Virus record (IMG/VR): IMGVR_UViG_3300017917_000529
Location: 4,790 to 68,789 of that record
DNA length: 64,000 nucleotides
DNA from: a virus
Strand: one strand, 5' to 3'
In this document: positions 4,597 through 59,179 of the stretch, piece by piece
How the letters are laid out: every line of letters begins with the position of its first letter
How positions within the stretch are numbered: the stretch's first letter is position 1
The notes under the pieces: generated by a model
Seen by the model: only the letters and a program-made list of their open reading frames with translations
What the model was told of the DNA's origin: nothing
The model's database searches: none
Program-made: the position numbers and the translations under genes

Positions 4597-4597
4597 T

Positions 4598-6157: not shown

Positions 6158-6317
6158 AATCTTTCTTTGACTTGTGAACCAATCTTACTTTACTAAGATG
6201 TTTGTTTTTACACATCCAAGTTAAATCTTTAGTCTCAGTGTAAGACCTTAAGGTATTTACTATATCCTTACATGTATGACAAATAAACTTGCCGTTATAT
6301 GTTACATAATTAGGCAC
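6135..6317 (-). CDS. small zinc-ribbon protein
   Basis: CHTC...WMCKNKH; overlaps both neighbours. Confidence 0.55.
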   Translation of the reverse strand: MPNYVTYNGKFICHTCKDIVNTLRSYTETKDLTWMCKNKHLSKVRLVHKSKKDYEREERE

Positions 6318-10300: not shown

Positions 10301-10582
10301 GACTATATGATTGTAGACTAGATCTAAATCTCCAGAGCGTTCTTTTTTATCTCTGGTATCAAATCTGTCCTGACACATATAGCCCTCTATGCCAAGAATA
10401 GGTTTAACGCCCTTTGCTTTTGCACCTCGATACAGTTCTCTATGCCCAGATAAGGTCCCGTGATCTGTGATTGCCAATGCTGGCATACCCAAATCAACTG
10501 CACGGTCTATATATTCTTCTGGAGTAGCAACACCATCAAATAATGAATAGTGTGTGTGGACGTGTAAACCTACATAACTCAT
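7310..10582 (-). CDS. dnaE: DNA polymerase III alpha subunit (family C) with PHP domain
   Basis: HVHTHYSLFDG, TDHG, GPGRGSSAGSL, PDIDTD, KIDALGL, GVFQCE, YSFNKSHAVAY. Confidence 0.96.
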   Translation of the reverse strand: MSYVGLHVHTHYSLFDGVATPEEYIDRAVDLGMPALAITDHGTLSGHRELYRGAKAKGVKPILGIEGYMCQDRFDTRDKKERSGDLDLVYNHIVLLAKNKIGLENLNKINEIAWTEGYFKKPRFDFEILEKYSEGIIVTSACPSSVLVKALENEEYAVAKKYIDWFKRVFKDDYYIEVMPHNEAKINKQLLSLADEYDVKAIVTPDCHHSDKEQREIQEFKLLLNTHAKVEKDHTYEKSKKHKDMMDRLDYLYGKDRQITFNKFKIHLLSYEEIKSAMQMQGIDREDIYLNTIEIANKVQDYDIKENLNLLPVQYRNPDKELELIAFEGLKEKGFENNKEYVDRLKEELSVIKDKKFGPYFLVVQNMISWAKKQNILVGPGRGSSAGSLLCYVLGITDIDPIKHNLLFFRFINPERNDFPDIDTDIQDSRRDEVKDYLVRQYRHVASIATFLQFKEKGVVRDVSRVLNIPLPDVNKVLKLVDTWDEFCRSKTTEWFREKYPEVEIYGEQLRGRIRGTGIHAAGIVTSKDPIFRYAPLETRSSPGSDVRIPVVGVDMEEAEKIGLIKIDALGLKTLSVIQDTIKAIKENHYVDINLLNIDMEDKNIYDMLSSGYTKGVFQCEATPYTNLLVKMGVSNLSELAASNALVRPGAMNTIGKDYVERKHGKQNTGYLHQILKSFTMETYGCILYQEQVMQACVELGGMTMSEADKVRKIIGKKKDAKEFDAFQEKFIKNASAYIAPNDALDLWKDFEAHAGYSFNKSHAVAYSTVSYWTAWLKYYYPLEFMFALLKNEKDKDARTEYLIEAKRMGIPMRLPHVNDSDIDFKIEGKGIRFGLSSIKYISDKIAQRYIDARPFNSYKELEEFTFTKGNGVNSRALQSLRAIGAATFTDNPRNDQEIKNNLYEYLNLPEFNIPLPPHYLAFITEVEDYDEKGSYILMGMVKGIKRSKGWSRVELLDKTGAIGIFDEEQTTLESGHTYLVLVNDNRIVSSVKIEDLKTSNSAIIRFLNYKQLPFTSEEHFVVSFKPRITKAGKKMASLTLADTSRNLHSVTVFPKAFPKAYMKIEEGHAYKFELSKMKDGTTILEDINA

Positions 10583-42926: not shown

Positions 42927-43457
42927 TCATATTTTCCTTGTAAACCAGCGTGGTAATGTAAATCTTGTTCCATCAATAATTGGCTTTACACCATGTATGA
43001 AATTTGGATTATCTGGAAAGCATAATAGATCTCCAGGTTTTGGCTTATATGAAATTTTGTATTTTGGAAAATATATGTCTCCGCCCTCATACTCATCATT
43101 TAAATAAACAAGTGTTGCTATGTCTAATGGTCTAGAAGCATCGTAGTGTTCATGCATTCCCCTGCCTTTTTCAAATTTGGCAATGTGTGTTTTTTCTTCT
43201 ATAAAGTTTTCAAAGTTTACAGAGTATTCAGAAATAACAAATTTATAGACTCTTTTTGCTACATCTTGAATTATTTTAAGTATCTCTTTATCATTTTCAA
43301 GTATTTCATTGTACGTATGTACCTTAAATTCTTGCTCAGTATTTCCAAAATCAGTAAAAGAATCTAAATGATTTTTAGCATAATTAGACACAGAAATAGC
43401 ATCATTATAATTCATAAAACCACCAATGTACTTTATCTGGTTTATATATTCTTCCAT
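42927..43457 (-). CDS. prolyl-4-hydroxylase-like 2OG-Fe(II) oxygenase
   Basis: HEHYD, LVYLNDEYEGGDIYFP, HGVKPIIDGTRFT. Confidence 0.88.
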   Translation of the reverse strand: MEEYINQIKYIGGFMNYNDAISVSNYAKNHLDSFTDFGNTEQEFKVHTYNEILENDKEILKIIQDVAKRVYKFVISEYSVNFENFIEEKTHIAKFEKGRGMHEHYDASRPLDIATLVYLNDEYEGGDIYFPKYKISYKPKPGDLLCFPDNPNFIHGVKPIIDGTRFTLPRWFTRKI

Positions 43458-45575: not shown

Positions 45576-45704
45576 TTAGTGAAAAGACATTGCTGTATGT
45601 TTTTTTGGACTACAACGTTCACATAACACATATGTGTTTTTTGTATATGGACAAGTTGTACTTTTTATTTTATGTCCAAAAATTAAACAAAAAAGTTTTT
45701 TCAA
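45576..45704 (-). CDS. small Cys/His protein, DUF1660-like (42 aa, not in ORF track)
   Basis: TTG start; MKKLFCLIFGHKIKSTTCPYTKNTYVLCERCSPKKHTAMSFH; overlaps the upstream stop. Confidence 0.55.
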   Translation of the reverse strand: MKKLFCLIFGHKIKSTTCPYTKNTYVLCERCSPKKHTAMSFH

Positions 45705-46330
45705 GGTAGTGGAACCCAGTGTTGTAATTTATCTCCACTCATATGTGTAAGTGGGGAAATATCATAAGCAATAGTTATTCTTGGTTTATTAAATAACCAA
45801 GGCCCTATACCATGTGGATGACCAGTTTCAGATAAAATAGCCCTATTATTTTTATTAATATTTTCTACTGGCTTTGCATCGTGTCCACCAATTTTATAAT
45901 AAGTAATAGATGGTTCAGCATCTACGCAATAATAGCCATGAAAATTAGGAGCACCTGTTCCACCTAAATGATCATGATAGTGTGTTGATTCATTTATTGC
46001 TGGATCTTCCATACCATCTGTATTAAACCAACCTTGAACCATATACGATTGTTTTGTATAATCAATTCCATAATATTCACATGCCTCTTTTGTCATATCT
46101 CTAAGTGCAGAAAAAAGTTTATGAATTTGTGGATTATAGCATTGAAAAATATTAAACTTTGTTCCTAGATTATGAACACCTTGCACAGTACTAGCAAACT
46201 CTTTAGATATTTTTGGATATACTCCAGCAAATAAATCTTTTTCTAGTTTTAATAAATATGCTGATAACTGTGTTAAATCATTATCAAGATATTTTTCAAA
46301 AAACCTATGAGGAAGTTTTGAATTTATCAT
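45701..46330 (-). CDS. 2OG-Fe(II) oxygenase-like protein (second family)
   Basis: QGWFN, YHDH, FHGYYCV, HPHGI, RITIAYD; start at 46330 (ATGA overlap). Confidence 0.7.
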   Translation of the reverse strand: MINSKLPHRFFEKYLDNDLTQLSAYLLKLEKDLFAGVYPKISKEFASTVQGVHNLGTKFNIFQCYNPQIHKLFSALRDMTKEACEYYGIDYTKQSYMVQGWFNTDGMEDPAINESTHYHDHLGGTGAPNFHGYYCVDAEPSITYYKIGGHDAKPVENINKNNRAILSETGHPHGIGPWLFNKPRITIAYDISPLTHMSGDKLQHWVPLP

Positions 46331-46992
46331 ATTAATGGAATCCAGTGTTGTTCGTGTTGTCTTCCAACATATTTTAATTCTTCTAGTGTCATAACATCGT
46401 ATGCCACTGTAATTCTTGGACCATCCCAAGTCCAATCTCCTTGAGCATGTGGATGACCCATTTCAGAATATATAGCACGATTATCTATATTTTTATTTTC
46501 TACATCTTTACCAAAAACTCTATAATATGTTGTTGAAGGTTCTGCTTTTACACAGTAATATCCATGAAAATTATCTGGAGCACCAGTATGACCATGATCA
46601 TGCCAATCTAACTTTCCTTTTTTAGCATAATTTATATTAAACCATCCCTGTAACATATATTTCTTTTTTTCAAAATCAATTTCATAATACTCACATGCTT
46701 CTTTAGCCATATCTTTAATATTTTTATATAACTCATATATACCTTCTATATGAAATTGAAAAACATTGTATTCTCTCCATTTAACAGTAGAAATACTACC
46801 AGACTCTACCCAAAAATCCTTATTGTTAACTGGAGTGATTCCGTCTAGTTCTACTTTTTCAATACTTTGATATCTATCGATTAGTTCATTTGCTAATAAA
46901 TCTAAATCATTATTTAAATATCTTTCAAAAAATTTATGTGGCTTGGTTGATTCTTGAATACCACGTAATTCTGGTGGTGGACCTTGTCTCAT
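46327..46992 (-). CDS. 2OG-Fe(II) oxygenase-like protein (paralogue of neighbour)
   Basis: QGWFN, WHDH, FHGYYCV, HPHAQ, RITVAYD. Confidence 0.7.
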   Translation of the reverse strand: MRQGPPPELRGIQESTKPHKFFERYLNNDLDLLANELIDRYQSIEKVELDGITPVNNKDFWVESGSISTVKWREYNVFQFHIEGIYELYKNIKDMAKEACEYYEIDFEKKKYMLQGWFNINYAKKGKLDWHDHGHTGAPDNFHGYYCVKAEPSTTYYRVFGKDVENKNIDNRAIYSEMGHPHAQGDWTWDGPRITVAYDVMTLEELKYVGRQHEQHWIPLI

Positions 46993-47041: not shown

Positions 47042-48295
47042 TTAATCTGGTATTTCTGAAGGAGAGTAGTCGTTATAATGAACTAGCCCACCTGCTATAA
47101 CCAAACCAATTGGATATCTTCCAAAACTATAAACAGTTCTAGTTTCATTAATAACTTCAACATTATCTATTACAACTAATGAATCTCTTGTTATTATTTT
47201 ATCTCCAGGCTTAATATCTCTTGATGAAATAAATTGATATAAACCATTTTTAACAACAAACATGTCTTCTAACAAAGAAAATCTCATATCTGGGTTATTA
47301 TTAAATTGTACAGTTTCGTGAACAACTGTTGGTGTAATTTTTGTTACTTCTGCTTCTAACTCTCTATAGTTAGTTAAATTACCACTTTTTTTCCATAGAA
47401 CAATTTTAAATAAATCTCCGACAGGCATTTCTTCAAATGCTTTTACTATCAACTTATCTCCAAGTTGAATATCTTTTGCTTTTTTATTTCCAGTTGTTGT
47501 AAGAACTGGGGCATCTTCGTCTACACAATATGTAGTTGGTGAAAAACCAAATACTCTGAATGGAGAGAATCCAAATACTCTAAAAGGTGAAAAACCAAAA
47601 ACGTTGAATGGTGAGAAACCAAATACGTTAAATGGTGAGAAACCAAATACTGTAAAAGGTGAGAAACCAAACACACCAAACGGAACGAAAGAAAATGTTG
47701 TAGTAACTGATGCTGAGTAATCTGAAAATTCTGAATCACCATTAGCATTGGTTGCTTCAACTCTATATTGTTGTGATGTTCCTGCTTCTTGTGATACTGT
47801 TACGCTTGTTGAAGTTCCTGTGTTTCCTGATTTACCGTCGTTTGATTCCCAGTAATAGTTGGTAATTGCTTTTCCACCATTTGCTGGTGCACTCCACGAA
47901 ACTTGATCTTGATCAGCGTTTGGAGATGATGCACTTGGTGCTGATGGTTTTGCTGGAACTGTTGTTGCTGTAATAGAATTAGAAACTTCAGATGATCCAG
48001 ATGTTCCATATTGATTGGTTGCGGTAACTGTAAAAGTATAAGATGTATCAGATTGTAAACCTGTTACTGTGATTGGAGATGAAGATCCAGTTGCTGTATA
48101 ATTTCCTGGATTTGATGTAACTGTAAAAGAATCTGCAGCGTACGTAGGGTCTGCTGTAAATGTTACTGTTGCTGCACCATTATTAAATGGTCTGGCTGTT
48201 CCAACATCAGTTGCTGTGCCAATTGTTGGTGCTTTTGGCATAAGAAAGTCATTTGCACCTTGTGATTTCTTACCACTCTTTTTACCTACTGCCAT
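47042..48295 (-). CDS. two FN3 domains + (FGFSPFxV) repeats + C-terminal Hint domain
   Basis: FN3 motifs (TGLQSDTSYTFTVTATN; VSWSAPANGG..ITNY); 7 octapeptide units; Hint from C-VDEDAPVLT to VYSF...VHYN. Confidence 0.8.
   Translation of the reverse strand: MAVGKKSGKKSQGANDFLMPKAPTIGTATDVGTARPFNNGAATVTFTADPTYAADSFTVTSNPGNYTATGSSSPITVTGLQSDTSYTFTVTATNQYGTSGSSEVSNSITATTVPAKPSAPSASSPNADQDQVSWSAPANGGKAITNYYWESNDGKSGNTGTSTSVTVSQEAGTSQQYRVEATNANGDSEFSDYSASVTTTFSFVPFGVFGFSPFTVFGFSPFNVFGFSPFNVFGFSPFRVFGFSPFRVFGFSPTTYCVDEDAPVLTTTGNKKAKDIQLGDKLIVKAFEEMPVGDLFKIVLWKKSGNLTNYRELEAEVTKITPTVVHETVQFNNNPDMRFSLLEDMFVVKNGLYQFISSRDIKPGDKIITRDSLVVIDNVEVINETRTVYSFGRYPIGLVIAGGLVHYNDYSPSEIPD
47528..47695 (-). repeat. 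24-bp-period coding repeat (FGFSPFxV)
   Basis: FSFVPFGV FGFSPFTV FGFSPFNV FGFSPFNV FGFSPFRV FGFSPFRV FGFSPTTY; synonymous codons differ between units. Confidence 0.95.
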
Positions 48296-48329
48296 CTTAT
48301 CTCCTTGTTTCTTTTATTATACCAAGTCT

Positions 48330-50081
48330 TTATGCAGACAAATCTCCGTATACTACCCAGGTATTTTCTGCTCTCTTAAATAATGTTGCTGAAGACCATT
48401 GTGCTCTTAATTTTAATCCAGGTGTAGCATTTACTGTTACTCCTGATGCTCCTGCAATTGTTACTTGACCTGCACCTGTTTGTAGAATATCTAAAGATGT
48501 TCCTATTGGAAACGCTACTGCACTATTAAGTGGAATTGTTACTGTTGTTGCACTGGCATTAGACATTTCAATCAAAGAATCTCTTTCGGTTAATGCTGAC
48601 AGAGTGTAACTTGCTGTTTTTTGTATAATTGGAGTTCTTGAAGGAACACCCTCTTTTGTTTGAGATCCATCTGTAAATGTTACACCAGAAGCAGAAACTA
48701 CTGTATTTCCAGTTACTGTTATATCTGCTACGAACAAATCGTTTAATTCTAAGTCATCTAATAAGGCTTGTCCAAAGTCAACTGTTGTTGTTGGTTCTGT
48801 ACCATATCCTTCAAAAAATTTCCATCTATCTGCTGATACGTCTCTTACGATACCAGCGTGTAAGTTTGATCCATTATTATAAGCAACTACCAAACCTAAG
48901 TCAACTGTATTTGCTGGATTTTCATGAGCAAGTTGAACCATATTATCTTCAATTGTTATAGATGTTGCACTAGCAGCAAAAGAATTACCATTTACTGTTA
49001 TGTCGTTATCTACAACTAAATTTCCGTTAATTGTTAGGCTACCAGTTAATGTTTGAGTATTTGCATCAGTTAATACAATCTTTGTTGTATCTGCAATACC
49101 GTGAACATTTGAAGTATCAAGATTGTGATCTTCTATTTGTGAAGCAGCATTTGACACAGCGTTTGAAAAAACATTTGCTGATTTTTCGTCTACGTATGTT
49201 GTTGTTGATAATGCTAAAGTGTTTGATATACCATGAACATTTGCTGTATCATCTAAATGTGTTTGAATTTCTCCATCAACATATGTGATTGTTGCTAATG
49301 CTAAGGTATTTGCTATACCGTGAACACTATCTGTTTCAAGATTATGATTTGAAACAGCATCGTCTGCATATGCTTCTAAATCTGTTATTGCATTTGCTAT
49401 AGATTGTGAAAGAGAATCTTCTACTCCATCAGTATATGATTGTGCATTTCCTAAAGTAAAGGCAGCAACGTTATCTGTATATGCTTCTGATGTTGTTATA
49501 GCATTTGCTATTTCACCTTGTAGGCTAGATACAGCATTTGCAAGATTATTAGCAGTTAATTCTTCTGCTAGGTCTAATTGATCTGAAATATTATTTGAAA
49601 GTATATTTATGTTATTATCTGTATAATCATTGGCAGCATCTAAACTAGTATTAATAGAATTTGATATTGTTAAGAAAAATTCTCCATCGTTATTTAATGC
49701 GTTTGCTAATTCAGCAAGGGTATCTAGTATAAGTGGTGCATTATTTGTTATATCTGCTATAGCATTTGAAACTAAATTTGTTACATCTGAACTTCTAGCA
49801 ATATTATTTGAAATCTGTGCATCTGGAATTAAATTACTTCCGTCTAATGTGGCAACACCATTAGCAGAACCTTTTTCGGTTAATAAAATATAATCGTCTA
49901 AACTTCCGCCTAGATCTTCTAAATTCTTAAAGTATGATAGGTCGTCCCAGTTACTGGTACCGTCTCCAATTTTAAATTGTCCTGTGTCGGTTTCAAAACC
50001 AATTTCACCTGCACCTAATACTGGATTTGCGTTGGCCCATTGAGCCTCTGTTCCTCTGCGTTGGAGCATTCTTGTTGCCAT
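48330..50081 (-). CDS. tail fibre protein
   Basis: Mtd-N-like start (QRRGT..W..NPVL..GEIGFETDT..FKIGDG); LDTLAELA; VHGIANT repeats; C-terminal AFPIGT...WVVYGDL domain. Confidence 0.8.
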   Translation of the reverse strand: MATRMLQRRGTEAQWANANPVLGAGEIGFETDTGQFKIGDGTSNWDDLSYFKNLEDLGGSLDDYILLTEKGSANGVATLDGSNLIPDAQISNNIARSSDVTNLVSNAIADITNNAPLILDTLAELANALNNDGEFFLTISNSINTSLDAANDYTDNNINILSNNISDQLDLAEELTANNLANAVSSLQGEIANAITTSEAYTDNVAAFTLGNAQSYTDGVEDSLSQSIANAITDLEAYADDAVSNHNLETDSVHGIANTLALATITYVDGEIQTHLDDTANVHGISNTLALSTTTYVDEKSANVFSNAVSNAASQIEDHNLDTSNVHGIADTTKIVLTDANTQTLTGSLTINGNLVVDNDITVNGNSFAASATSITIEDNMVQLAHENPANTVDLGLVVAYNNGSNLHAGIVRDVSADRWKFFEGYGTEPTTTVDFGQALLDDLELNDLFVADITVTGNTVVSASGVTFTDGSQTKEGVPSRTPIIQKTASYTLSALTERDSLIEMSNASATTVTIPLNSAVAFPIGTSLDILQTGAGQVTIAGASGVTVNATPGLKLRAQWSSATLFKRAENTWVVYGDLSA

Positions 50082-50137
50082 TTTTTATTTTCTCCTATAG
50101 GAAATTACCTATTTCTTTTTATATTATAACTTATTTT

Positions 50138-50593
50138 TTAATTATATTCATCACTTGGTGTTCCACCATCAAACACTGTAGCCCATGTATTAGAAAATGG
50201 TGTTCCGCCACTTAGTGTTGATATTTGTGGATCATTATATTGTGCTGAATCCCAAAAAATAGTTGTAATTCTTCCGTCTCCATCAATTGCTTCATCATGA
50301 ATGTGATCTGGAATATTTTGAACATCATTGCTTGTTGCAATTGTATACCAATCACCTTCATAATAAATTTTTAATCTTTCAACGAAAGTGTCAAACCACA
50401 TATCACCATTGTCTGGTGAAGAAGGGGCAGTATTGCCAACAGGAGTTGATCCTGCAACAGCATCGACATAGTCTTTAGTAGCAGCGTGGTCACCTAATGT
50501 TGGTGTTGCAACTGTTACAGTGCCACCAAACGAACCTCCGTTTGTTACGTATAACCCATTTTTGACTTTGAAGTCTTTATTAAATGTAGTCAT
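50138..50593 (-). CDS. fibre-associated protein
   Basis: DFKVKNGL N-terminus shared with 50621..52210; HAATKDYVD; GDMWFD. Confidence 0.6.
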   Translation of the reverse strand: MTTFNKDFKVKNGLYVTNGGSFGGTVTVATPTLGDHAATKDYVDAVAGSTPVGNTAPSSPDNGDMWFDTFVERLKIYYEGDWYTIATSNDVQNIPDHIHDEAIDGDGRITTIFWDSAQYNDPQISTLSGGTPFSNTWATVFDGGTPSDEYN

Positions 50594-50620
50594 TTACTGC
50601 CCCCTATTTTTTTTATTAAG

Positions 50621-52210
50621 TTATGCTAACAAAGTTCCAACAACTGTAACTGTGCTGTTATTATTTGCTGTTGTTGCTAATAAGCGAACATTTCCAGAGT
50701 TAATATCTGCACTAATTGATGCTGCTGAACCATTTGTTCCAACAATTGCATATTCTGTGATTGCAATGTTGTCTGATGTATCAAGAGTTAATAAAACTTT
50801 TGAAACTTCAGTGTGTGTTGAGTAAGCAACCTTAACCAAAAATTCTGCTGATCTGTAATCTGCTTTTGGCCAAGAGAATGCTGTTTGAACTCCTGCTGTA
50901 GGTGCACTCAATGTTGCTGCAACTACTTTTGCAAGACTATCAATCTCTACTTCTGTAAAATTAGGAACAACTGCTTCTAAAGCATCTACTGCACGTTGGT
51001 CAGTAAAGTATAGATTGGTTGTACCTTCTGCTAAATCATCAGTATCTGAGTCAGCAACACCGTTTTCTGCGGTAATTACCAATCCTGCAGAGTTACCTGT
51101 GATTGTAATATTTGTTAATGTTGCATTTGTCAACAAATCTGCTGCAGAAGACTTAGCACGAGCATCTGTGAAGTATTCGTTGCTTGTTCCTTCTTCAATA
51201 TCATCTGTTGTTAATGCTCCAATTTCTGTATCTGTGTAAGATACTGCGTTAGAGTATGCATTTGCTGCTGCTCCTGCTGCGTCATAGTTTGTTGCCAAAC
51301 CATCTGCATAAGATTGTGCGTTTGATAAAGCATTTGCTGCTGCTGAATCTGCATAATCTTCAGCGTCTGCTAAGGCATTTGCTGCAGATCCTAGTGGATC
51401 ATAACTTCCAGTAAAGGAAATTGTATTTCCTGTAATGCTAATATCTGTTCCTGCTGTTAATGCATTTTGTTTTTCTGCAATTAAATTAGTTACAGTTCCA
51501 ACAAAGTTTGCATCATCACCAATTGCTGCTGCAATTTCATTAAGTGTATCTAATAATGCTGGTGCACTATCTACTAACGCTGCAATTGCATTATCTGTAT
51601 AATCTTCTGAATAAGATATTGCATTTGAGTAAGCATTTGCTGCTAAACCTGCTGCATCGTAATTAATTGCTAATCCATCTGCGTAATTTTCTGCTGCTGA
51701 TTGAGCATTTGCTGCTGCACTATCTGCATAAGATTGTGCGTTTGATAAAGCATTTGCTGCTGCACTATCTGCATAAGATTGTGCGTTTGATAAAGCGTTT
51801 GCTGTTGCACTATCTGCATAATCTTCTGCATCTGCTAAAGCGTTTGCAGCAGAACCTGCTGGATCGTACATACCAGAAAGTGCATCTTGTGCTCTTTGAT
51901 TTGTAAAATATTTATTTGTTGTACCTTCATCTAAATCATCTGTATCGAAGTTTGAGATGTCTGATACTTGACCAGTTACATCACCAACAAGATCTGCTGT
52001 GATTACGTTTGCAGAAAAGTTTGCACTTCCGTCACGTAATACAACAGTGTTTGCTGTTGCGTTTGCGGTTGCTGATCCACCAATAAGACCAATAATATAA
52101 TTTTGGTCATCTTGCTTCTTTGTAAGAACGTCGTAGCCACCAATGGTACCTGTGGAACCTTCAACGACCAGACCATTCTTAATCTTGAAGTTCTTTGCTA
52201 TTGTTGCCAT
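50621..52210 (-). CDS. long coiled-coil fibre protein with internal repeats
   Basis: Three TDDLxEGTxNxYFT motifs; multiple SAAANALSNAQSYAD repeats; APALLDTLNEIAAAIGDD. Confidence 0.75.
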   Translation of the reverse strand: MATIAKNFKIKNGLVVEGSTGTIGGYDVLTKKQDDQNYIIGLIGGSATANATANTVVLRDGSANFSANVITADLVGDVTGQVSDISNFDTDDLDEGTTNKYFTNQRAQDALSGMYDPAGSAANALADAEDYADSATANALSNAQSYADSAAANALSNAQSYADSAAANAQSAAENYADGLAINYDAAGLAANAYSNAISYSEDYTDNAIAALVDSAPALLDTLNEIAAAIGDDANFVGTVTNLIAEKQNALTAGTDISITGNTISFTGSYDPLGSAANALADAEDYADSAAANALSNAQSYADGLATNYDAAGAAANAYSNAVSYTDTEIGALTTDDIEEGTSNEYFTDARAKSSAADLLTNATLTNITITGNSAGLVITAENGVADSDTDDLAEGTTNLYFTDQRAVDALEAVVPNFTEVEIDSLAKVVAATLSAPTAGVQTAFSWPKADYRSAEFLVKVAYSTHTEVSKVLLTLDTSDNIAITEYAIVGTNGSAASISADINSGNVRLLATTANNNSTVTVVGTLLA

Positions 52211-52223
52211 CTATATCTTCTCC

Positions 52224-52670
52224 TTATGCCTTAAGTCCTATACGTGCGTAACGTACAGTGACTGGCTTTATAATTGCGTCTGGTGTTACAGTTAAAGCAA
52301 CTGTATCTCCAGCCCTTGAGACGCTTATGGTGCCAATATTCCCATCATTGTCTATCGTTCCGTATTCGCTAACGTTTATATTTGTTCCGTCAACTAATAT
52401 GGTTAACTCTGTTGCGTAAAAGTAATTATCTCCTTGCGTGGTTTTTGCAATAGAAATTATGTACTTTACCATTCTCCACTCTGCTGCACTAAAACTATCA
52501 ATTACTGTAACATTTTCAATTCCTGTAATAGTGTTGTCATTATTTCCAAATGTTCCCAGTCTAGTAGCCTGAGCAGCCGTGGTATCAATTAAATCTTCGT
52601 AATCCTGTTGAGATGGCCTATCGCCTGTCTCGTATCTGGATTTTACTGTTGAAATGGATACTTGTGCCAT
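52224..52670 (-). CDS. virion protein sharing the C-terminal domain of the adjacent fibre
   Basis: ETGDRPSQQDYEDLIDT; C-terminal VSEYGTI vs ITEYAIV in 50621..52210; leaderless start at 52670. Confidence 0.6.
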   Translation of the reverse strand: MAQVSISTVKSRYETGDRPSQQDYEDLIDTTAAQATRLGTFGNNDNTITGIENVTVIDSFSAAEWRMVKYIISIAKTTQGDNYFYATELTILVDGTNINVSEYGTIDNDGNIGTISVSRAGDTVALTVTPDAIIKPVTVRYARIGLKA

Positions 52671-52707
52671 GTTTAGATTATAACACATTTTTAACTAAAA
52701 AATGTTA

Positions 52708-53433
52708 TTATCTAAATATATAACTTCCTATATGAACTACTTTAACATAAGGTGCAACGTATACTGTTCCACCAAGTTCTCTCCAAAGTGTACAAAAAAA
52801 ATAATCTTCAGATAAAAGTCTTTCTTCTTTAGGATCTACCTGTGTTTTCCAAAAATCATGTATATACTCACCTTTTTTAATTCCACCTAAATCTAATTGA
52901 TCGCTTTTATATTTTCCAACATGTTCTTTCATCTTTTCAAAAACATTACGTTTAATCAACATCATTCCAGTTCCAACATTTTTTACTTTTAAAAGTTGTT
53001 TTGGGTTTTCTGCAACCTGTTTTAAGTCTTCTGAATTTATTAAATTTATATTTACGTAAGCACCATATCTACTTAGATCTTCTTTTTTTGATTCTGCTGC
53101 TTTTTGAATATTTTTCCAATTAATTGCTTTCATTGGAACGGCAGCACCAACTAAATCAACATCCTCTTTTATCATTTCTATAACATGATCAGAGTTAAAC
53201 CCTTCATCCCCATCTACAAACAATAAATAATCACAATCAGATCTTAAGAATATTTCAGTCAATGTATTTCTTGCCCTATTTATAAGTGATTCATTATACA
53301 AATCATTAAAACTAACCCTATATCCCTGGGTAGTTAATTTTAAAACCAAACTTAATATACTTTTTGTAAACATACCACTACATTGACCACCATACATAGG
53401 GGTTGCTATAAATATTTTTGGTTTTTTATCCAT
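52708..53433 (-). CDS. GT-A fold glycosyltransferase-like protein
   Basis: IATPMYGG, ESLINRARN, LLFVDGD (DxD), GTGMMLIKR, LSEDYFFC, HIG. Confidence 0.75.
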   Translation of the reverse strand: MDKKPKIFIATPMYGGQCSGMFTKSILSLVLKLTTQGYRVSFNDLYNESLINRARNTLTEIFLRSDCDYLLFVDGDEGFNSDHVIEMIKEDVDLVGAAVPMKAINWKNIQKAAESKKEDLSRYGAYVNINLINSEDLKQVAENPKQLLKVKNVGTGMMLIKRNVFEKMKEHVGKYKSDQLDLGGIKKGEYIHDFWKTQVDPKEERLLSEDYFFCTLWRELGGTVYVAPYVKVVHIGSYIFR

Positions 53434-53442
53434 AGGTATATT

Positions 53443-53667
53443 CTACATTATGTAGTTGCTATATCCAATAACTTGTAGTGGGATTGGGGGGACATTATTT
53501 GGACCATACCCAGGAACTTTTATATTAGTAAATCTAATTCTAAATGGAAGCCTGTATTCTATTTCTACCGTTATTGGTTTGTATATAACTTTAGCAGTTT
53601 TTACTTTATCAGTATCAATTGTTTTTACTTTATGCTTTATATCGTCAAAAATTATTGCTGTTGCCAT
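53443..53667 (-). CDS. hypothetical protein
   Basis: Coupled by TAATG; C-terminal PPIPLQVIGYSNYI. Confidence 0.55.
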   Translation of the reverse strand: MATAIIFDDIKHKVKTIDTDKVKTAKVIYKPITVEIEYRLPFRIRFTNIKVPGYGPNNVPPIPLQVIGYSNYIM

Positions 53668-54074
53668 TAGTCAGTTACATCTTCAAGAATTATCATACTA
53701 CCCTGAGCAACTGTCCATACAATTTCTGATGTTGATAATTCTATATCAAATATATCTCCAGTTTCTAATTGAACTGATTCCTCTGCTGTAAGTCCTACTG
53801 TAAATTCTCCTGCTAAATCATCTGCATCTGCCGCAGGTGTTAAAGTTAAGATAACTGTAGCATCATCAGTAATTTTACCTAGGTTTTCAGTACTATTTGG
53901 TCTTTTAATTTTCATAGCAATATCCCAGTCTGGAATATTTAATGGTTGTTCTTCATCATCAGTTACATAAACCTTAAATCCAGAAGTATCTCCACGAACT
54001 ACAGTCCATTCAACTGTTGGTGGTTTTAAACCTACTTCATAAAAAGATTTTGCAGAATTTCTTAAAATTGCCAT
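53667..54074 (-). CDS. BppU-N-like small virion protein
   Basis: WTVVRGDT...FDIEL...WTVAQG...EDVT; paralogue of 58062 and 59292 ORFs. Confidence 0.55.
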   Translation of the reverse strand: MAILRNSAKSFYEVGLKPPTVEWTVVRGDTSGFKVYVTDDEEQPLNIPDWDIAMKIKRPNSTENLGKITDDATVILTLTPAADADDLAGEFTVGLTAEESVQLETGDIFDIELSTSEIVWTVAQGSMIILEDVTD

Positions 54075-54106
54075 ATGGTAATTATATCATCTTATTGATT
54101 TTAAGA

Positions 54107-54634
54107 TTATGATAAACCGTTTTTTAATGCTCCCCAGGTACCATTACCTTTAGCAGTAACTACAAGAACTCCATTAGATGCATCTGCATAAGCACAAACT
54201 GCTACTGCACCAGCACCACTGGCTGGTCTAACATTTGTTAATCCTCCACCAGTTTTTACATATAAAATATCACCAGCAACAAATTCAGATGTGTTGACGT
54301 CTGGCAATACTCCAGATACAACACAAATTCCTTGTGAATTATTTGATGTTGTTGATTTTAACAATCCTAATATTGGTGCTGTTGTTGATGGAATTGCTTT
54401 ATCAACGGTAGTTAAATCTTGTTCAGTATTGTGACCATTAATAAATACAGGAGATCCTGCTGCTATTGATCCACCAGATGTATTTATTACATCTAACTTC
54501 ATGTAAGATAATCCAAGTCCAGCAAGAGTGCTATCTAATGAATTTGCTAAAGATGCAATATCTCCGTGAACATTTACACTATCATCAACTTGTGGATAGG
54601 GTAAATTATATATGCTAGATTGTCCTGTTGCCAT
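54107..54634 (-). CDS. putative virion decoration/fibre protein
   Basis: LPYPQ..D..NVHGDI..LA N-terminus; G.PVFI...GD.LYV capsid-fibre-like strands. Confidence 0.5.
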   Translation of the reverse strand: MATGQSSIYNLPYPQVDDSVNVHGDIASLANSLDSTLAGLGLSYMKLDVINTSGGSIAAGSPVFINGHNTEQDLTTVDKAIPSTTAPILGLLKSTTSNNSQGICVVSGVLPDVNTSEFVAGDILYVKTGGGLTNVRPASGAGAVAVCAYADASNGVLVVTAKGNGTWGALKNGLS

Positions 54635-54696
54635 AGAAATATTATATCATTTTAAATAATTTTTTGTATTATCTTACTAAAATATAATACATATAT

Positions 54697-54725
54697 TTGA
54701 CATAAGGGTAAATTAATGTTATACT
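54697..54725 (+). promoter_or_regulatory. consensus sigma70/SigA promoter
   Basis: TTGACA-17 bp-TATACT with extended TG, upstream of the lysozyme-like gene. Confidence 0.85.
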
Positions 54726-54774
54726 TGATATATGACACCAACCAAGGTGTCATGTTTTTCTTAGGAGGAAAACT

Positions 54775-55347
54775 ATGAAAAAAGATAAAACATTTTTAAT
54801 AGGAATACTCGCAAGTGTGGTCGCATTATCAGTTAGTTTTAACATAGCAAATGCTAAGGCTATTGAAAGTACGCCCAAAAAAGAAGATTTTGCAAGATAT
54901 ACCGCTCAAGCGGTTTTTTTGCTTTCTGTAGAGAATAATGATCACTACACAGAAGAAGATATTAAAGTGCTATCTAAGTATGAAGATCATGTTCAATTTA
55001 ATGATTTAGAACTTAAAGAGTTTTTAGGTGCTTGTGGATTTAAGGGTCGTAGACTTATGGAAGCATGGGCTATAGTTAAAAAAGAGTCTATGGGAAACGC
55101 CTTAAGTTTTAATGGTAATTCTAAAACTGGAGATAAATCATATGGATTGTTTCAAATTAATATGATTGGAGACCTTAATGCTGACAGAAAAGAAAAATAT
55201 GATTTAGATTATGCCAGTCAGTTATTAAATCCAGTTATAAATTGTCAAGTTGCATATTTAATGAGTAAAAATGGAGAAAACTGGGGACCTTGGAAGGGTT
55301 TAACTTCTAGAACTAGAGAATTTATGTATAAATTTCCAAAAGATTAA
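54775..55347 (+). CDS. secreted lysozyme-like / lytic transglycosylase protein
   Basis: Signal peptide (..NIANA); KKES catalytic Glu; GDKSYGLFQINM; WGPW; AGGAGG RBS. Confidence 0.8.
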   Translation: MKKDKTFLIGILASVVALSVSFNIANAKAIESTPKKEDFARYTAQAVFLLSVENNDHYTEEDIKVLSKYEDHVQFNDLELKEFLGACGFKGRRLMEAWAIVKKESMGNALSFNGNSKTGDKSYGLFQINMIGDLNADRKEKYDLDYASQLLNPVINCQVAYLMSKNGENWGPWKGLTSRTREFMYKFPKD

Positions 55348-56261
55348 TCTATTGGATAAGCATTATATACAAATAAAGAATCTGCCACTATAAGACCAAA
55401 TGGTTCTCTTATAAAATCATAAACTTTTCTTTTTTCTTGTATAATTTCTATTTTTTCAACATAGTATAATTCACTATCATTTATCTGTTCTTTATTTCTA
55501 ACTATTTGATCATTTTTCTTTAATTCAGATGAAACAATAAAAATTAATTTATTATCTCTTAAAACTAAAATATCTTCTTGAGTAGAAAATCTTTTAAATT
55601 TATCTCCATTAACAATAACTGTTTCAAATACTTCTGTTTCTTTAATATTTTTTATTTCAGCAACAAGATCTTCATATTCAATATTAGTTTCAGAATTCCA
55701 TTCTCTAATACCTTCGTGATTTGTAAGTGGAATATTTTTAAAATATTTAACTATTAACTTATCATCCATTGTTATATCTTTTGCTAAAATATAACCTTTT
55801 TCTGTTAAAACAGGGGTGTCTTGGTCTATACAATATGGAGTAAAACTATATGTTACTGGTGAGAACCCAAATACTCTAAAAGGTGAAAATCCAAAAACGT
55901 TAAATGGAGAAAAACCAAAAACATTAAAAGGAGAAAACCCAAAAACATTAAAAGGAGAAAATCCGAATACTGTAAATGGTGAAAATCCAAATACTCCAAA
56001 TGGCACAAAACTAAATTGTCTAACTGTTAAATCAACTGGGGTTTCATAATCTGCTGGTGTGGTAACTGCTGGAACTTGTTCAACAATTTTTCCATCATTT
56101 TCTAATTCTGTTGGTTCACCAGAAACAGATGTAACAACATTTCCTAGAGTAAAACCTTCTGAAACAACGTCTGATTGAGCCTGTGCACTTGTTCTTCCAA
56201 TAAAGTTAGGAACTAGTTTCATTCCTTTGGCTATAACATATTTGACTAATTTTCCAAACAT
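55344..56261 (-). CDS. PASTA-like domain + (FGFSPFxV) repeats + C-terminal Hint domain
   Basis: VPNFIGRTSAQAQ...GFTLG...GKIVEQVP...VDLTV (PASTA); 7 octapeptide units; Hint from C-IDQDTPVLT to VYDF...FVYN. Confidence 0.8.
   Translation of the reverse strand: MFGKLVKYVIAKGMKLVPNFIGRTSAQAQSDVVSEGFTLGNVVTSVSGEPTELENDGKIVEQVPAVTTPADYETPVDLTVRQFSFVPFGVFGFSPFTVFGFSPFNVFGFSPFNVFGFSPFNVFGFSPFRVFGFSPVTYSFTPYCIDQDTPVLTEKGYILAKDITMDDKLIVKYFKNIPLTNHEGIREWNSETNIEYEDLVAEIKNIKETEVFETVIVNGDKFKRFSTQEDILVLRDNKLIFIVSSELKKNDQIVRNKEQINDSELYYVEKIEIIQEKRKVYDFIREPFGLIVADSLFVYNAYPID
55848..56015 (-). repeat. 24-bp-period coding repeat (FGFSPFxV)
   Basis: FSFVPFGV FGFSPFTV FGFSPFNV FGFSPFNV FGFSPFNV FGFSPFRV FGFSPVTY. 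Confidence 0.95.
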
Positions 56262-56270: not shown

Positions 56271-56921
56271 CTATGCTATCAAATCGCCAACTAGAAGCCA
56301 GGTATTTGTGTCAAACTTAAACAAAGATACACCAGAATATCTTGCTGCAATAGACTTATTTCCATTTTTACTATTCAAAGTAACTCCAGTATCTGGAACA
56401 AATGTAACGGAGCCAGTGTTCATTCTAAAAAAATCTATTTCTGATCCAATTGGAAAAGCAACACTTGAGTTAGGTGGAATAGTTACTGTCCATGTTGTTG
56501 TAGAATCAAATGTTAATGTTTGACCAATATTATCTAAACTTAAATTCCAATTTTGTGTTGGAGCAGTTGTTTGTTTATTAAATGTTACCAATCCGCCATA
56601 AGATATCCATTGACTTCCATTATAAAATTGTAAATCGTTTACTGCTGATCCACCAGAATCTTGTCTAATAAAACATATAGTTCCTCTAACTGGAGAAGAT
56701 AATGCTGAATCTCTTGCTGCAGGATTTAAATAATTGTTTATTCCAGCCTTTGCTGTAATTACTGCATTGATATCTGAAAATGTAACATTGTTTTGAAATT
56801 CATGTGTTCCTGACCAAATATAATTTGATGTAGTGTTTGTATTTCCACCAATTGCATAAAAAGTATCTGTATCTTGATCGTAAACATATGCTACTTTTCC
56901 ATCAGTATTGAATGTTGTCAT
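56271..56921 (-). CDS. short fibre protein with AFPIG...GDL C-terminal domain
   Basis: TVTIPPNSSVAFPIGS...TWLLVGDLIA, paralogous to the C-terminus of 48330..50081. Confidence 0.7.
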   Translation of the reverse strand: MTTFNTDGKVAYVYDQDTDTFYAIGGNTNTTSNYIWSGTHEFQNNVTFSDINAVITAKAGINNYLNPAARDSALSSPVRGTICFIRQDSGGSAVNDLQFYNGSQWISYGGLVTFNKQTTAPTQNWNLSLDNIGQTLTFDSTTTWTVTIPPNSSVAFPIGSEIDFFRMNTGSVTFVPDTGVTLNSKNGNKSIAARYSGVSLFKFDTNTWLLVGDLIA

Positions 56922-58435: not shown

Positions 58436-59179
58436 TTATGACACTGAGATATACATGCTTTTTAATAAATAAGAGGCATCATAATCTGATTTAATATAAG
58501 CATTACAGTAGTTAAACCACATATCTTTATTTTCAACATAAATGGTTTGATCAAAACTTATATCATATATTCCTTGATATTTAAAATATCCTAATTGACC
58601 AAGGTTTGACTTATCTAATTCTTGATAAACTGTTGCAATCCATACCTCTGTATGATTTACTAATATTTCTAGTTGTATGTTATAGGTAACTTTTACTACA
58701 GAACCAATTTCTAAGCCTCTAAATGTAAAAGATCTTGTTTCTTCGTTATATAAGGCATTACATCCTTTTGGTAAAAAATTATGATTTTTTTTAATACTGT
58801 GTTTGTCAATTAATAATTGATGCCATCCATTTTCTCCTCTATTGGGATTTATTGTATGTATCCTACTAGATGTATTATGATAACTAGCCCATCCAAGTTG
58901 TTGGTTATAGGTAGAACCTAGTCCCTCTTTTCCATCTTTACCATCTTTTCCATCTTTTCCATCAATACCATTTTTTCCATCTTTTCCTTTTGGTCCTGGA
59001 TCACCTTTTGGTCCTTGTGGACCTTCTGGTCCCCTATCACCTTTTGGTCCTACTAAACCTTGTTCTCCTTGAGGTCCTGGTACTGGCAAGAATTGTAGTT
59101 GTGGTTGATTTTCATCTGAATAAATTTTTGGTTTTTCTTTTTCTTGAATAGGAAAACCCATACTTCGTGTTATTGGCAC
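58436..59179 (-). CDS. collagen-like (Gly-X-Y) protein
   Basis: Continuous triplets from GPQGEQGLVGPKGDRGPEGPQGPKGDPGPK to GKDGKE; GGAGG RBS with GTG start. Confidence 0.85.
   Translation of the reverse strand: MPITRSMGFPIQEKEKPKIYSDENQPQLQFLPVPGPQGEQGLVGPKGDRGPEGPQGPKGDPGPKGKDGKNGIDGKDGKDGKDGKEGLGSTYNQQLGWASYHNTSSRIHTINPNRGENGWHQLLIDKHSIKKNHNFLPKGCNALYNEETRSFTFRGLEIGSVVKVTYNIQLEILVNHTEVWIATVYQELDKSNLGQLGYFKYQGIYDISFDQTIYVENKDMWFNYCNAYIKSDYDASYLLKSMYISVS

What the first reader, a model, noticed from the sequence alone, without database searches (positions are those of the whole stretch)
47042..56261. Two proteins with different N-termini share a (FGFSPFxV)x7-Hint cassette: candidate auto-processing peptide/adhesin system
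Seen: 47042..48295 (two FN3 domains) and 55344..56261 (PASTA-like) have unrelated N-termini. Both continue into a nearly identical tract, FSFVPFGV-FGFSPFTV-(FGFSPF[N/R]V)4-FGFSP, with one difference in 53 aa, and then Y-C and a Hint domain that ends the protein. The codons differ freely between units and between genes, and the two Hint domains are only loosely similar, so the peptide sequence itself is under selection. Known: Hint domains (inteins, Hedgehog, bacterial intein-like) form a thioester at Cys1, which leads to cleavage or ligation. Inference: processing would leave the Phe-rich tract as an activated C-terminus. It could be ligated to a partner or small molecule, act as a hydrophobic surface-binding tip, or serve as a RiPP-like multicore precursor of octapeptides. 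I know no described phage system with this architecture.
Basis: partly seen in the sequence, partly recalled or inferred. Interest (0 to 1): 0.92.

Follow-up and report, generated by a model that had tools for sequence, protein, structure and literature searches.

The report
Phage fibre proteins capped by Hint domains
Two tail-fibre partner proteins of an uncultured phage each end in a strictly conserved phenylalanine/proline repeat capped by a real intein-like (Hint) domain that probably cuts itself off; the layout is widespread and I found no description of it, and its chemistry is untested.

Summary
Genes 47042-48295 (2xFN3) and 55344-56261 (PASTA) share a 53-residue FSFVPFGV-(FGFSPFxV)n tract with 1 amino-acid difference and 31 synonymous codon differences. 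Each then has Y-C and a C-terminal domain.

That domain is a genuine Hint fold: all listed Foldseek PDB matches are inteins, Hedgehog or BIL domains, and the best fit is C. thermocellum BIL 2lwy (TMt 0.81). It resembles a type-A bacterial intein-like domain. Cys1 is kept in 142 of 143 relatives and there is no +1 nucleophile. Block B reads SxxE instead of TxxH, and Tyr-Asn replaces His-Asn.

Each gene lies 10-35 nt downstream of a fibre gene that ends in the same beta-sandwich domain. This held in 80 of 80 assessable relatives, though they belong to one syntenic lineage. Two database proteins fuse fibre, tract and Hint.

Some relatives end right after the tract, or carry a small Cys-rich tail instead. 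This suggests the mature product is binding domain plus tract, and that the Hint is a removable cap.

The RiPP reading is unlikely. In distant relatives the pre-Hint segment becomes other Pro-rich repeats and also links domains.

No chemistry has been shown. This scan has already found the same family on other DNA several times.

The parts
48330..50081 (-). Long fibre gene (583 aa). It has an Mtd_N-type N-terminus, and its last ~110 aa (about 48333-48662) form the shared C-terminal 'domain X'.
   Evidence: Mtd_N at E 3.9e-15, and tail-fibre PHROGs; 49% identity over 72 aa, E 4e-17, to the C-terminus of the 216-aa fibre.
47696..48295 (-). N-terminal 200 aa of the FN3-type protein: a conserved basic leader followed by two FN3 domains.
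   Evidence: fn3 at E 1e-9 with 2 stretches; alignment.
47537..47695 (-). Phe/Pro octapeptide tract, FSFVPFGV-(FGFSPFxV)5-FGFSP, aa 201-253.
47072..47527 (-). Hint (BIL-like) domain from Cys257 to Asn408. A 9-aa tail (47045-47071) and the stop codon follow.
   Evidence: alignment to the PASTA-type Hint; weak Pfam Hint match, E 0.13; conserved positions.
56271..56921 (-). Short fibre gene (216 aa). Domain X is aa 123-216 (about 56274-56555).
   Evidence: pLDDT 74-93 for blocks 121-216. Z 13.2 to the C-terminal domain of the Pa223 capsid spike, and Z 8.8 to CBA120 TSP4 residues 79-180.
56016..56261 (-). N-terminal 82 aa of the PASTA-type protein: a leader helix followed by a PASTA domain.
   Evidence: PASTA at E 1.8e-5; pLDDT about 78-93.
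55857..56015 (-). Phe/Pro octapeptide tract, aa 83-135. The linker VTYSFTPY follows (55833-55856).
   Evidence: pLDDT 36-40 when modelled as a monomer.
55362..55832 (-). Hint (BIL-like) domain from Cys144 to Asn300. A 5-aa tail AYPID (55347-55361) and the stop codon follow.
   Evidence: RadA intein at E 0.002 and BIL 2lwy at E 0.008; pLDDT 83-97; 54 PDB matches at E<=1e-3.

Best explanation
These are two paralogous fibre-partner proteins of an uncultured long-tailed phage. Each is encoded just after a fibre gene that ends in the same small beta-sandwich domain, and each most likely extends or decorates that fibre.

Each protein has four parts:
- a conserved N-terminal leader;
- a surface-binding type module (PASTA, or two FN3 domains);
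- a rigidly conserved aromatic/proline repeat, (FGFSPFxV)n;
- a divergent intein-like Hint domain of the bacterial-intein-like (BIL) kind.

Proposed mechanism, inferred and not shown:
1. Cys1 of the Hint attacks the preceding Tyr-Cys peptide bond (N-to-S acyl shift).
2. The resulting thioester is resolved by water or a thiol.
3. The Hint leaves as a self-removing cap, and the mature virion protein ends in the Phe/Pro tract.

The tract itself is a structural or adhesive stalk or tip. The Hint would keep this greasy segment soluble or in register until assembly.
For: Hint fold:
- AF2 pLDDT is 83-97 over residues 144-300.
- Foldseek against the PDB gives 54 matches at E<=1e-3. All listed are inteins, Hedgehog or BIL domains. 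2lwy has TMt 0.81 and rmsd 2.9.
- A profile search of the PDB gives RadA intein at E 0.002 and BIL 2lwy at E 0.008.

Catalytic conservation:
- Position 1 is Cys in 142 and Ser in 1 of 143 non-redundant relatives.
- Among 88 assessable 50%-identity cluster representatives it is Cys 71, Ser 16, Ala 1.
- It is the only Cys in the window's PASTA-type Hint.
- The near-terminal Asn is less conserved, at 114 of 143. N-terminal chemistry is therefore the part under selection.

The Hint is dispensable and the tract is the end product:
- Of 86 tract genes in 72 viral loci, 77 carry a Hint and 7 carry a ~45-aa Cys-rich tail.
- The other 2, both paralogues of L071, are complete ORFs in a 56-kb contig and stop 8 residues after the tract.
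- 10 further representatives end 0-16 residues after the tract.

The tract is selected: pN 0.033 against pS 0.81 between the paralogues, and dN 0-0.2 in orthologue pairs. The x residues are position-specific, with N in the middle units and R in the last ones.

Fibre link:
- 80 of 86 tract genes have an upstream gene, 8-36 nt away, that ends in domain X. The other 6 lie at contig edges.
- Proteins P0190 and P0150 fuse domain X, tract and Hint in one chain.
- The neighbours are tail-fibre genes.

BIL precedent: in type-A BILs cleavage products dominate (PMC4031507, passages read).
Against: No cleavage has been observed.

The window's copies have Glu where inteins have the block-B His, described as the most conserved intein residue (PMC4031507). 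In relatives that position is E 124, Q 13, H 6 of 143. The penultimate His is Tyr.

No Pfam Hint model reaches its cut-off in any of the 46 members scanned.

The 5-residue tail is conserved in length in 100 of 143 relatives. A mere leaving group does not explain that.

The Hint evolves fastest (pN 0.41) and is swapped between the two loci in relatives. This would also fit a receptor-binding tip.

The 80 of 80 adjacency comes from one syntenic phage lineage, so it is not 80 independent observations.

The fused proteins and the short representatives are database predictions and could include gene-calling or contig-end artefacts.
Confidence: 0.5

Rival explanations
1. Transfer rather than hydrolysis. 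The Hint thioester is resolved by a specific nucleophile. The tract's C-terminus would then be ligated to one of three things: the 5-9-residue tail (type-A BIL splicing by aminolysis), the fibre, or a host or lipid molecule (Hedgehog-like or sortase-like).
For: - Type-A BILs can ligate their flanks without a +1 nucleophile (PMC4031507, passages read).
- The best structural match is such a BIL, 2lwy.
- The tail is 5 residues long in 100 of 143 relatives, and Asn precedes it in 114 of 143.
- Hedgehog Hint domains are among the fold matches: 1at0, E 2.2e-6.
- PASTA is a cell-wall-ligand-binding type of domain (family knowledge, recalled).
Against: - Hint-less natural forms end in the bare tract.
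- 29 of 143 relatives lack the terminal Asn, so tail ligation cannot be general.
- There is no sterol-recognition-like region after the Hint.
- In the fused forms the fibre link is at the other end of the protein.
- No acceptor has been identified.
Confidence: 0.2
2. The Hint is not cleaved. It persists as a terminal knob, possibly the fast-evolving receptor-binding tip. The conserved Cys would serve another role.
For: - The block-B His and the penultimate His are replaced in the window's copies.
- The Hint is the fastest-evolving part.
- It is exchanged as a cassette: P0073 and P0098 have identical Hints, and P0067 and P0104 are 77% identical over the shared tract and Hint.
- An alternative, presumably uncleaved, Cys-rich tail occupies the same position in 7 of 86 genes.
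Against: - A nucleophile (Cys or Ser) at exactly Hint position 1 is kept in 143 of 143 relatives and in 87 of 88 representatives. The rest of the domain diverges to about 40% non-synonymous difference.
- Distant members keep canonical TxxH and His-Asn.
- Hint-less forms show that the tip is not essential.
Confidence: 0.15
3. The tract is mainly a substrate for the neighbouring 2OG-Fe(II) oxygenase and glycosyltransferase genes. It would be a hydroxylated or glycosylated Ser-Pro stalk, extensin-like. This is compatible with any fate of the Hint.
For: - Every unit has an invariant S/T-P.
- A 2OG-FeII_Oxy_3 gene lies at 42927-43457.
- Two paralogues at 45701-46992 resemble 2OG-FeII_Oxy_5 clusters by language-model features, score 0.96, a lead only.
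- A glycosyltransferase-like gene lies at 52708-53433.
- Earlier notes of this scan report oxygenase types co-varying with repeat type. I did not test that.
Against: - The whole region is syntenic across the lineage, so adjacency carries little information.
- A collagen-like gene at 58436-59179 is an equally good oxygenase substrate.
- No modification has been shown.
Confidence: 0.1
4. RiPP-like multicore precursor: the octapeptides are released as small products.
For: The identical short units and the nearby tailoring-type enzymes look superficially like a multicore precursor.
Against: - The tract links folded domains inside longer relatives: P0135, P0136, P0150, P0179.
- The unit can shrink to FGFSP or change to YSFTP or FFxPP.
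- No protease, cyclase or exporter family was found next to either gene.
- The genes sit in a fibre module, paired with fibres.
- There are no cleavage-site-like residues between units.
Confidence: 0.02

Closest known systems
Type-A bacterial intein-like (BIL) domains, e.g. Clostridium thermocellum BIL (PDB 2lwy)
   Same: - Small Hint fold: TMt 0.81, rmsd 2.9; profile E 0.008.
- Cys1 is present.
- There is no +1 nucleophile on the C-flank.
- The C-terminal block is like intein block G and ends in Asn.
- For type-A BILs cleavage is reported to dominate over splicing (PMC4031507).
   Different: - The domain is encoded by phages at the extreme C-terminus of fibre-partner proteins, with only 5-9 residues following.
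- Block B reads SxxE, not TxxH, and Tyr-Asn replaces His-Asn in this clade.
- It is always preceded by a Pro-periodic, mostly aromatic repeat.
- No Pfam Hint model reaches its threshold.
Hedgehog/Hog C-terminal autoprocessing domain
   Same: - Hint fold: 1at0, E 2.2e-6, TMt 0.67.
- It sits at the C-terminus of a secreted or surface-type protein.
- Its only necessary chemistry is N-terminal thioester formation, which releases the N-terminal product.
   Different: - No sterol-recognition region follows the Hint.
- The block-B His is absent here.
- No acceptor molecule is known.
C-terminal intramolecular chaperone domains of phage tailspikes and fibres (Peptidase_S74 type; recalled, not searched as a structure)
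   Same: The concept is the same: a C-terminal domain of a fibre protein that removes itself after assembly.
   Different: The fold and chemistry are unrelated (a Ser-Lys protease against a Hint thioester). No S74 match appeared in the Pfam scans. This is an analogy only.
Phage NCTB 'putative phage tail protein, contains intein domain' (LT598654.1, BN7874_136)
   Same: It is a collagen-like tail protein that ends in GGGG-C, a Hint domain and ...IHN followed by 7 residues. tblastn from P0122 gives 30% identity, E 2e-8. C-terminal Hint caps on phage tail proteins are therefore already annotated in at least one record.
   Different: It has no aromatic/Pro tract and different N-terminal modules. 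I found only an annotation line, not a study.
CBA120 TSP4 XD1 / T4 gp9-type beta-sandwich (for domain X of the upstream fibres)
   Same: The fold is similar: Z 8.8, rmsd 3.1, 92 residues aligned to TSP4 residues 79-180. The best match is the C-terminal domain of the Pa223 capsid spike, Z 13.2. The XD1 relatives CpaA and StcE also appear, as in Table 2 of PMC8825819.
   Different: XD1 is described there as a probable spacer, not as a docking site. The fold match therefore does not show that domain X binds the tract protein.

Membership tests
Hint (Hedgehog/intein) superfamily | Hint beta-fold | tested here: met
   there are 54 PDB matches at E<=1e-3. All listed are inteins, Hedgehog or BIL domains, each with probability 1.00.
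Hint (Hedgehog/intein) superfamily | Nucleophile (Cys/Ser/Thr) at position 1 | tested here: met
   Cys144 and Cys257 in the window. Among relatives: 142 Cys and 1 Ser of 143.
Hint (Hedgehog/intein) superfamily | Block B Thr-x-x-His | tested here: not met
   The HMM alignment to the RadA intein puts S226 on the Thr and E229 on the His. In relatives the His position is E 124, Q 13, H 6 of 143.
Canonical class-1 intein | C-extein +1 Cys/Ser/Thr, and a functional C-extein to be spliced | tested here: not met
   The +1 residue is Ala in the PASTA protein and Asp in the FN3 protein, and only 5 and 9 residues follow. In relatives +1 is A 58, S 23, L 22, D 9, M 6, E 6 and other residues 19, of 143.
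Canonical class-1 intein | Penultimate His and terminal Asn (block G) | tested here: inconclusive
   The window has Tyr-Asn. In relatives the penultimate residue is Y 96, H 28, N 18, and the terminal residue is N 114, H 20, other 9, of 143.
Type-A BIL domain | Cys1, an intein-like C-terminal block, and no +1 nucleophile | tested here: met
   The definition is taken from PMC4031507. Caveat: His-Asn is Tyr-Asn in the window.
Type-A BIL domain | Demonstrated autocleavage or splicing | not testable with these tools
   Needs protein expression and mass spectrometry.
Hedgehog-type autoprocessing domain | Sterol/adduct recognition region C-terminal to the Hint | tested here: not met
   Only 5-9 residues follow the Hint. 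In relatives the tail is 1-18 residues.
Pfam Hint families (PF01079, PF14890, PF07591, PF13403) | Score at or above the gathering threshold | tested here: not met
   PF01079 scores 12.2 bits against a cut-off of 29.7. Among 46 members, Intein_splicing matches 8, PT-HINT 3 and Hint_2 1 at E<=0.1. Where bit scores were printed they lie below the cut-offs.
T4 gp5-type triple beta-helix octapeptide repeat | Sequence or structure match of the tract | tested here: inconclusive
   There is no Gp5_C hit at E<=1. The Atlas model of the tract resembles the Gp5_C, bactofilin and DUF2807 beta-helix clusters only weakly, with TM 0.49-0.57 on about 50 residues. As a monomer the tract has pLDDT 36-40.
RiPP precursor | Leader and core peptides with dedicated maturation and export genes | tested here: not met
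   The N-termini are folded domains. The tract links domains in relatives. No such enzyme families lie next to either gene.

The most novel reading that the evidence does not exclude
The Hint at the far end of the fibre partner is not just a disposable cap. It would hold a latent thioester that is discharged onto a specific nucleophile. The tract's C-terminus would then become covalently attached. One possible acceptor is a free amine of the host cell wall brought close by the PASTA or FN3 module, in a sortase-like reaction without a sortase. Another is a virion or lipid acceptor. This would be the first Hedgehog-style protein-transfer reaction used by a phage adsorption apparatus.
Probability: 0.12. 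Interest if true: 0.9.

Novelty: new variant of a known kind. Interest (0 to 1): 0.62.

Why it matters
Hint domains are known as inteins, Hedgehog processing domains, BILs and pretoxin modules. A large family of phage fibre proteins capped by them does not appear in the papers I could search. The family has 832 clusters at 50% identity with E<=1e-3.

If the cap is self-removing, this is a second, chemically unrelated route to the maturation of phage fibres by a removable C-terminal domain.

The family also offers three things for experiment:
- a natural series with Hint, with a Cys-rich tail, or with no cap, to dissect why the cap exists;
- Hint domains that work, if they work, without the block-B His;
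- a very strongly conserved aromatic/proline repeat whose structure and binding properties are unknown.

If the thioester is transferred rather than hydrolysed, it would be a new mode of virion assembly or host attachment.

Tried and rejected
- Complex prediction. I submitted three copies of fibre residues 95-216 (alignment A2) plus one full-length PASTA-type protein (alignment A1). The score was 0.00 and the tool gave no verdict. It is neither evidence for nor against binding.
I therefore could not see neighbourhoods of the divergent homologues P0116 and P0118 by that route.
- megablast and tblastn of the region and of the FN3-type protein against 50,697 phage records found no match at E<=1e-5. 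Only the divergent member P0122 hit one record, Phage NCTB.
- PHROGs gave no informative family for either protein: two weak tail hits at E about 1e-3 for the FN3 protein and none for the PASTA protein. NCBIfam gave no intein model.
- The PDB profile search listed 173 sequences at E<=10. After the top few intein, BIL and TFIIB-intein rows, most of the 60 rows shown were coronavirus spike fragments at E 0.16-3, aligned to the repeat region. I treat these as compositional noise.
- Language-model feature search with the tract alone gave no usable hit.
- Papers. 'FGFSPF' matched 0 papers. 'Hint domain' + phage + 'tail fiber' matched 4 papers. In two of them the passages I read concern terminase inteins or say there is no Hint; the other two I saw only in the listing. 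'bacterial intein-like' + phage matched 12 papers, none on phage fibres by title or abstract. Two wider searches turned up nothing relevant in the listings. My terms were not found in PMC3482391. Supplementary files were not consulted.
- I considered that the near-identity of the two tracts reflects recent gene conversion. For this window I reject it, because synonymous sites are saturated. In other lineages cassette exchange is real.
- I considered domain X to be an XD2/XD3-type docking domain. The match is to XD1, which the paper calls a probable spacer, so I dropped that argument.
- oxyA (46327-46992) has no PDB sequence match at E<=1 and no Pfam hit.


Full report
**Observation**

On the minus strand, ORF 47042..48295 encodes 417 aa and ORF 55344..56261 encodes 305 aa. 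Pfam finds two FN3 stretches in the first (E 1e-9) and a PASTA domain in the second (E 1.8e-5). The N-termini are unrelated, but BLASTP aligns the last 234 residues at 52% identity, E 3e-73.

The shared tract lies at 47537-47695 and 55857-56015. Over 53 residues there is one difference (Arg/Asn). Of the 53 codons, 21 are identical, 31 differ synonymously and 1 differs non-synonymously, and nucleotide identity is 125 of 159. Codons also differ between units within each gene.

Nei-Gojobori counts give pS 0.81 (saturated) and pN 0.033 for the tract. For the following 159 codons they give pS 0.48 and pN 0.41.

TRF reports period-24 arrays in both genes. A degenerate pattern for FGFSPF matches 10 times, five per gene and nowhere else, against 0.01 expected.

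The near-identity of the tracts is old purifying selection on the peptide, not recent gene conversion.

**The C-terminal domain is a Hint domain of the BIL kind**

I aligned 46 homologues (A1) and used the alignment three ways.
- A profile search of the PDB ranks Pyrococcus RadA intein (E 0.002) and the C. thermocellum bacterial intein-like domain 2lwy (E 0.008) first. Most of the lower rows shown are spike-protein fragments aligned to the repeat at E>0.1, which I take as noise.
- AlphaFold2 with A1 models residues 144-300 at pLDDT 83-97 and the PASTA domain at about 78-93. The tract (89-141) reaches only 36-40.
- Foldseek against the PDB gives 54 matches at E<=1e-3. All listed are inteins, Hedgehog autoprocessing domains or BIL domains. 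The best fit to a target is 2lwy (TMt 0.81, rmsd 2.9), and Hedgehog 1at0 scores E 2.2e-6.

No Pfam Hint model reaches its threshold, and NCBIfam intein models do not hit. The domain is therefore divergent in sequence.

**Catalytic positions**

I examined 143 non-redundant Hint domains of the family.

| Position | Residues found (of 143) |
|---|---|
| Position 1 | Cys 142, Ser 1 |
| Block-B Thr position | Ser 137, Thr 5, Val 1 |
| Block-B His position | Glu 124, Gln 13, His 6 |
| Penultimate residue | Tyr 96, His 28, Asn 18, Phe 1 |
| Terminal residue | Asn 114, His 20, others 9 |
| Residue after it (+1) | Ala 58, Ser 23, Leu 22, Asp 9, Met 6, Glu 6, other residues 19 |
| Tail length | 5 residues in 100 |

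The HMM alignment to the RadA intein places S226 on the Thr and E229 on the His.

By the definitions in PMC4031507 (passages read), BILs lack the +1 nucleophile. Type A BILs keep an intein-like C-terminus and mostly give cleavage products. The same review calls the block-B His the most conserved intein residue.

The window's domains therefore work like a type-A BIL but lack two of the usual assisting residues. Distant members of the same family keep TxxH and His-Asn, for example the proteins of L054 and L057. The only universally kept catalytic feature is the position-1 nucleophile. That points to N-terminal thioester or ester chemistry as the selected activity.

**Family and context**

The word-indexed search finds 417 proteins at E<=1e-3 in the 167-534 aa range. 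All 120 listed carry the tract, with 4-11 units. The exhaustive profile search finds 832 clusters at 50% identity with E<=1e-3, 242 with E<=1e-10 and 65 with E<=1e-30.

UniProt members carry only automatic names such as 'PASTA_pknB domain containing protein [uncultured Caudovirales phage]'.

In IMG/VR, 213 stretches encode relatives. I examined the 72 loci that were kept. They hold 86 tract genes, and 15 loci hold both a PASTA-type and an FN3-type gene.

The window encodes a portal, capsid protease, major capsid protein, tail-related proteins, DNA polymerase and DnaB-type helicase. The portal's nearest cultured relatives are ~130-kb Streptomyces siphophages at 47-48% identity. The genes around the two tract genes are tail-fibre genes.

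**Pairing with fibres**

A note of this scan pointed out that each tract gene follows a fibre gene with the same C-terminal domain. I tested this.
- The C-termini of the 583-aa and 216-aa fibres align at 49% over 72 aa, E 4e-17.
- In the related loci, 80 of 86 tract genes have an upstream gene, 8-36 nt away, that ends in this 'domain X'. The other six lie at contig edges.
- The whole module is syntenic in this phage lineage, so these are not independent cases.

Three things add weight:
- the pair occurs twice per genome;
- two database proteins fuse fibre N-terminus, domain X, tract(s) and Hint in one chain: P0190 has domain X at 123-226 (E 1e-18) and P0150 at 125-231 (E 7e-5);
- the pairing holds for the Hint-less forms too.

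In the fusions the tract follows domain X directly and the Hint is at the far end. If fibres run from proximal N-terminus to distal C-terminus, the Hint sits at the distal tip. This is an inference.

Domain X is modelled at pLDDT 74-93. It resembles the C-terminal domain of the Pa223 capsid spike (Z 13.2), a KP1 baseplate protein (Z 10.1) and CBA120 TSP4 residues 79-180 (Z 8.8). That TSP4 segment is XD1, which PMC8825819 calls a probable spacer. The fold therefore does not by itself indicate docking.

**What follows the tract varies**

Of the 86 genes, 77 carry a Hint and 7 carry a ~45-residue Cys-rich tail. The remaining 2, both paralogues of L071, are complete ORFs inside a 56-kb contig and stop 8 residues after the tract. 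Ten further cluster representatives end 0-16 residues after the tract, though some of these may be truncated predictions.

This is the strongest argument that the functional product is 'binding domain plus tract' and that the Hint is an auxiliary, removable cap.

The Hint is also the fastest-evolving part of the protein. Orthologue dN is 0.035-0.65 for the Hint and 0-0.2 for the tract. The Hint moves between the two loci as a cassette with the tract: P0073 and P0098 have identical Hints, and P0067 and P0104 are 77% identical over the shared tract and Hint.

**What the tract is**

Within this clade the tract is position-specific: first unit FSF[VT]PFGV, Asn in the middle units, Arg in the last one or two.

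Across the wider family the core is a pentad, aromatic-small-aromatic-S/T-Pro. It can occur with or without the F-x-V spacer, or change to YSFTP, FFxPP or PT/AP-rich repeats. It also links small Cys-rich or FN3 domains inside longer proteins.

Of 147 representatives, 122 have a Hint and 88 could be assessed. In those 88 the 40 residues before the Hint are aromatic/Pro-rich in 60, Pro-rich in 15 and other in 13. Position 1 is Cys 71, Ser 16, Ala 1.

The Atlas model of the tract weakly resembles beta-helical clusters (Gp5_C, bactofilin, DUF2807), with TM 0.49-0.57 over about 50 residues. This is a lead only. An eight-residue period is also that of the T4 gp5 needle repeat (recalled, not tested).

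**Mechanism**

Shown:
- the Hint fold;
- the conserved position-1 nucleophile;
- the absence of a splicing nucleophile;
- strong selection on the tract;
- the fibre pairing;
- natural forms without the cap.

Inferred: an N-to-S acyl shift at Tyr|Cys, resolution of the thioester by water or thiol, loss of the Hint, and a mature fibre partner ending in the greasy tract. In this reading the Hint acts as a solubilising or registering cap. It would be analogous in role, not in fold, to the self-cleaving C-terminal chaperone domains of tailspikes (recalled).

I give this 0.5. The rivals are:
- transfer of the thioester to a specific acceptor, including BIL-type ligation of the conserved 5-residue tail (0.2);
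- an uncleaved Hint acting as knob or receptor tip (0.15);
- the tract mainly as a substrate of the neighbouring oxygenases and glycosyltransferase, which is compatible with the others (0.1);
- a RiPP-like precursor (0.02).

**Novelty**

C-terminal Hint domains on phage tail proteins are at least annotated. One example is Phage NCTB BN7874_136, a collagen-like tail protein ending in GGGG-C plus a Hint. I found no paper on them or on the tract.

This scan has reported the same family several times on other genomes, with similar conclusions. I reached the fold, the residue statistics, the pairing and the Hint-less forms from my own calls.

It is a new variant of a known kind. The finding is interesting but chemically untested.

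Noticed in passing
45701-46992 (minus strand): Two paralogous genes lie just downstream of the FN3-type gene. They have no Pfam, NCBIfam or PDB sequence match. By language-model features the first resembles viral 2OG-FeII_Oxy_5 clusters (score 0.96, a lead only). Both are conserved in this position in related loci, including the Hint-less L071.
   Followed up: partly
42927-43457 and 58436-59179: A 2OG-FeII_Oxy_3 (prolyl-hydroxylase-type) gene (E 7e-11) and a collagen-repeat gene (E 1.4e-9) both sit in the structural region. They are a plausible enzyme and substrate pair, independent of the tract.
   Followed up: no
54775-55347 (plus strand): This is the only opposite-strand gene in the fibre module. 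It encodes an SLT_3 lysozyme-like protein (E 6.8e-12) with a hydrophobic N-terminus. Its end overlaps the end of the PASTA-type gene by 4 nt. It is conserved in this place in most related loci that I mapped, but absent from L071.
   Followed up: partly
52708-53433 and 54107-54634: A glycosyltransferase-like gene (phrog_1574, E 1.7e-40; weak Anp1 match) and a Phage_cement_2 gene (E 3.2e-5) lie between the two fibre/tract pairs.
   Followed up: no
37294-38889: The portal protein is 47-48% identical to portals of ~130-kb Streptomyces siphophages such as Coruscant and BoomerJR. Together with the PASTA module this hints at an actinobacterial host, although the window has only about 25-39% G+C.
   Followed up: partly
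L073 (LT598654.1, Phage NCTB) 3960-10456: Three genes among five consecutive genes in the tail-fibre region are annotated with intein domains: a tail protein ending in a Hint, a 153-aa stand-alone 'intein domain protein' ending ...VHNKVD, and a 'large intein domain protein'.
   Followed up: partly
P0073/P0098 and P0067/P0104 (database proteins): In other lineages the PASTA-type and FN3-type proteins carry identical Hints, or are 77% identical over the shared tract and Hint. In this window the Hints differ at about 41% of non-synonymous sites. The tract plus Hint is exchanged between the two loci as a cassette.
   Followed up: partly
51704-51847: A 45-bp tandem repeat (3.2 copies, 91% matches) lies inside the 529-aa fibre gene. 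It encodes a repeated 15-residue Ala/Asn/Ser-rich unit.
   Followed up: no
L043-L049; P0125, P0172, P0179, P0263: A ~45-residue Cys-rich tail with 6-9 Cys replaces the Hint after the tract in some relatives. Similar Cys-rich modules alternate with tract segments in longer proteins.
   Followed up: partly
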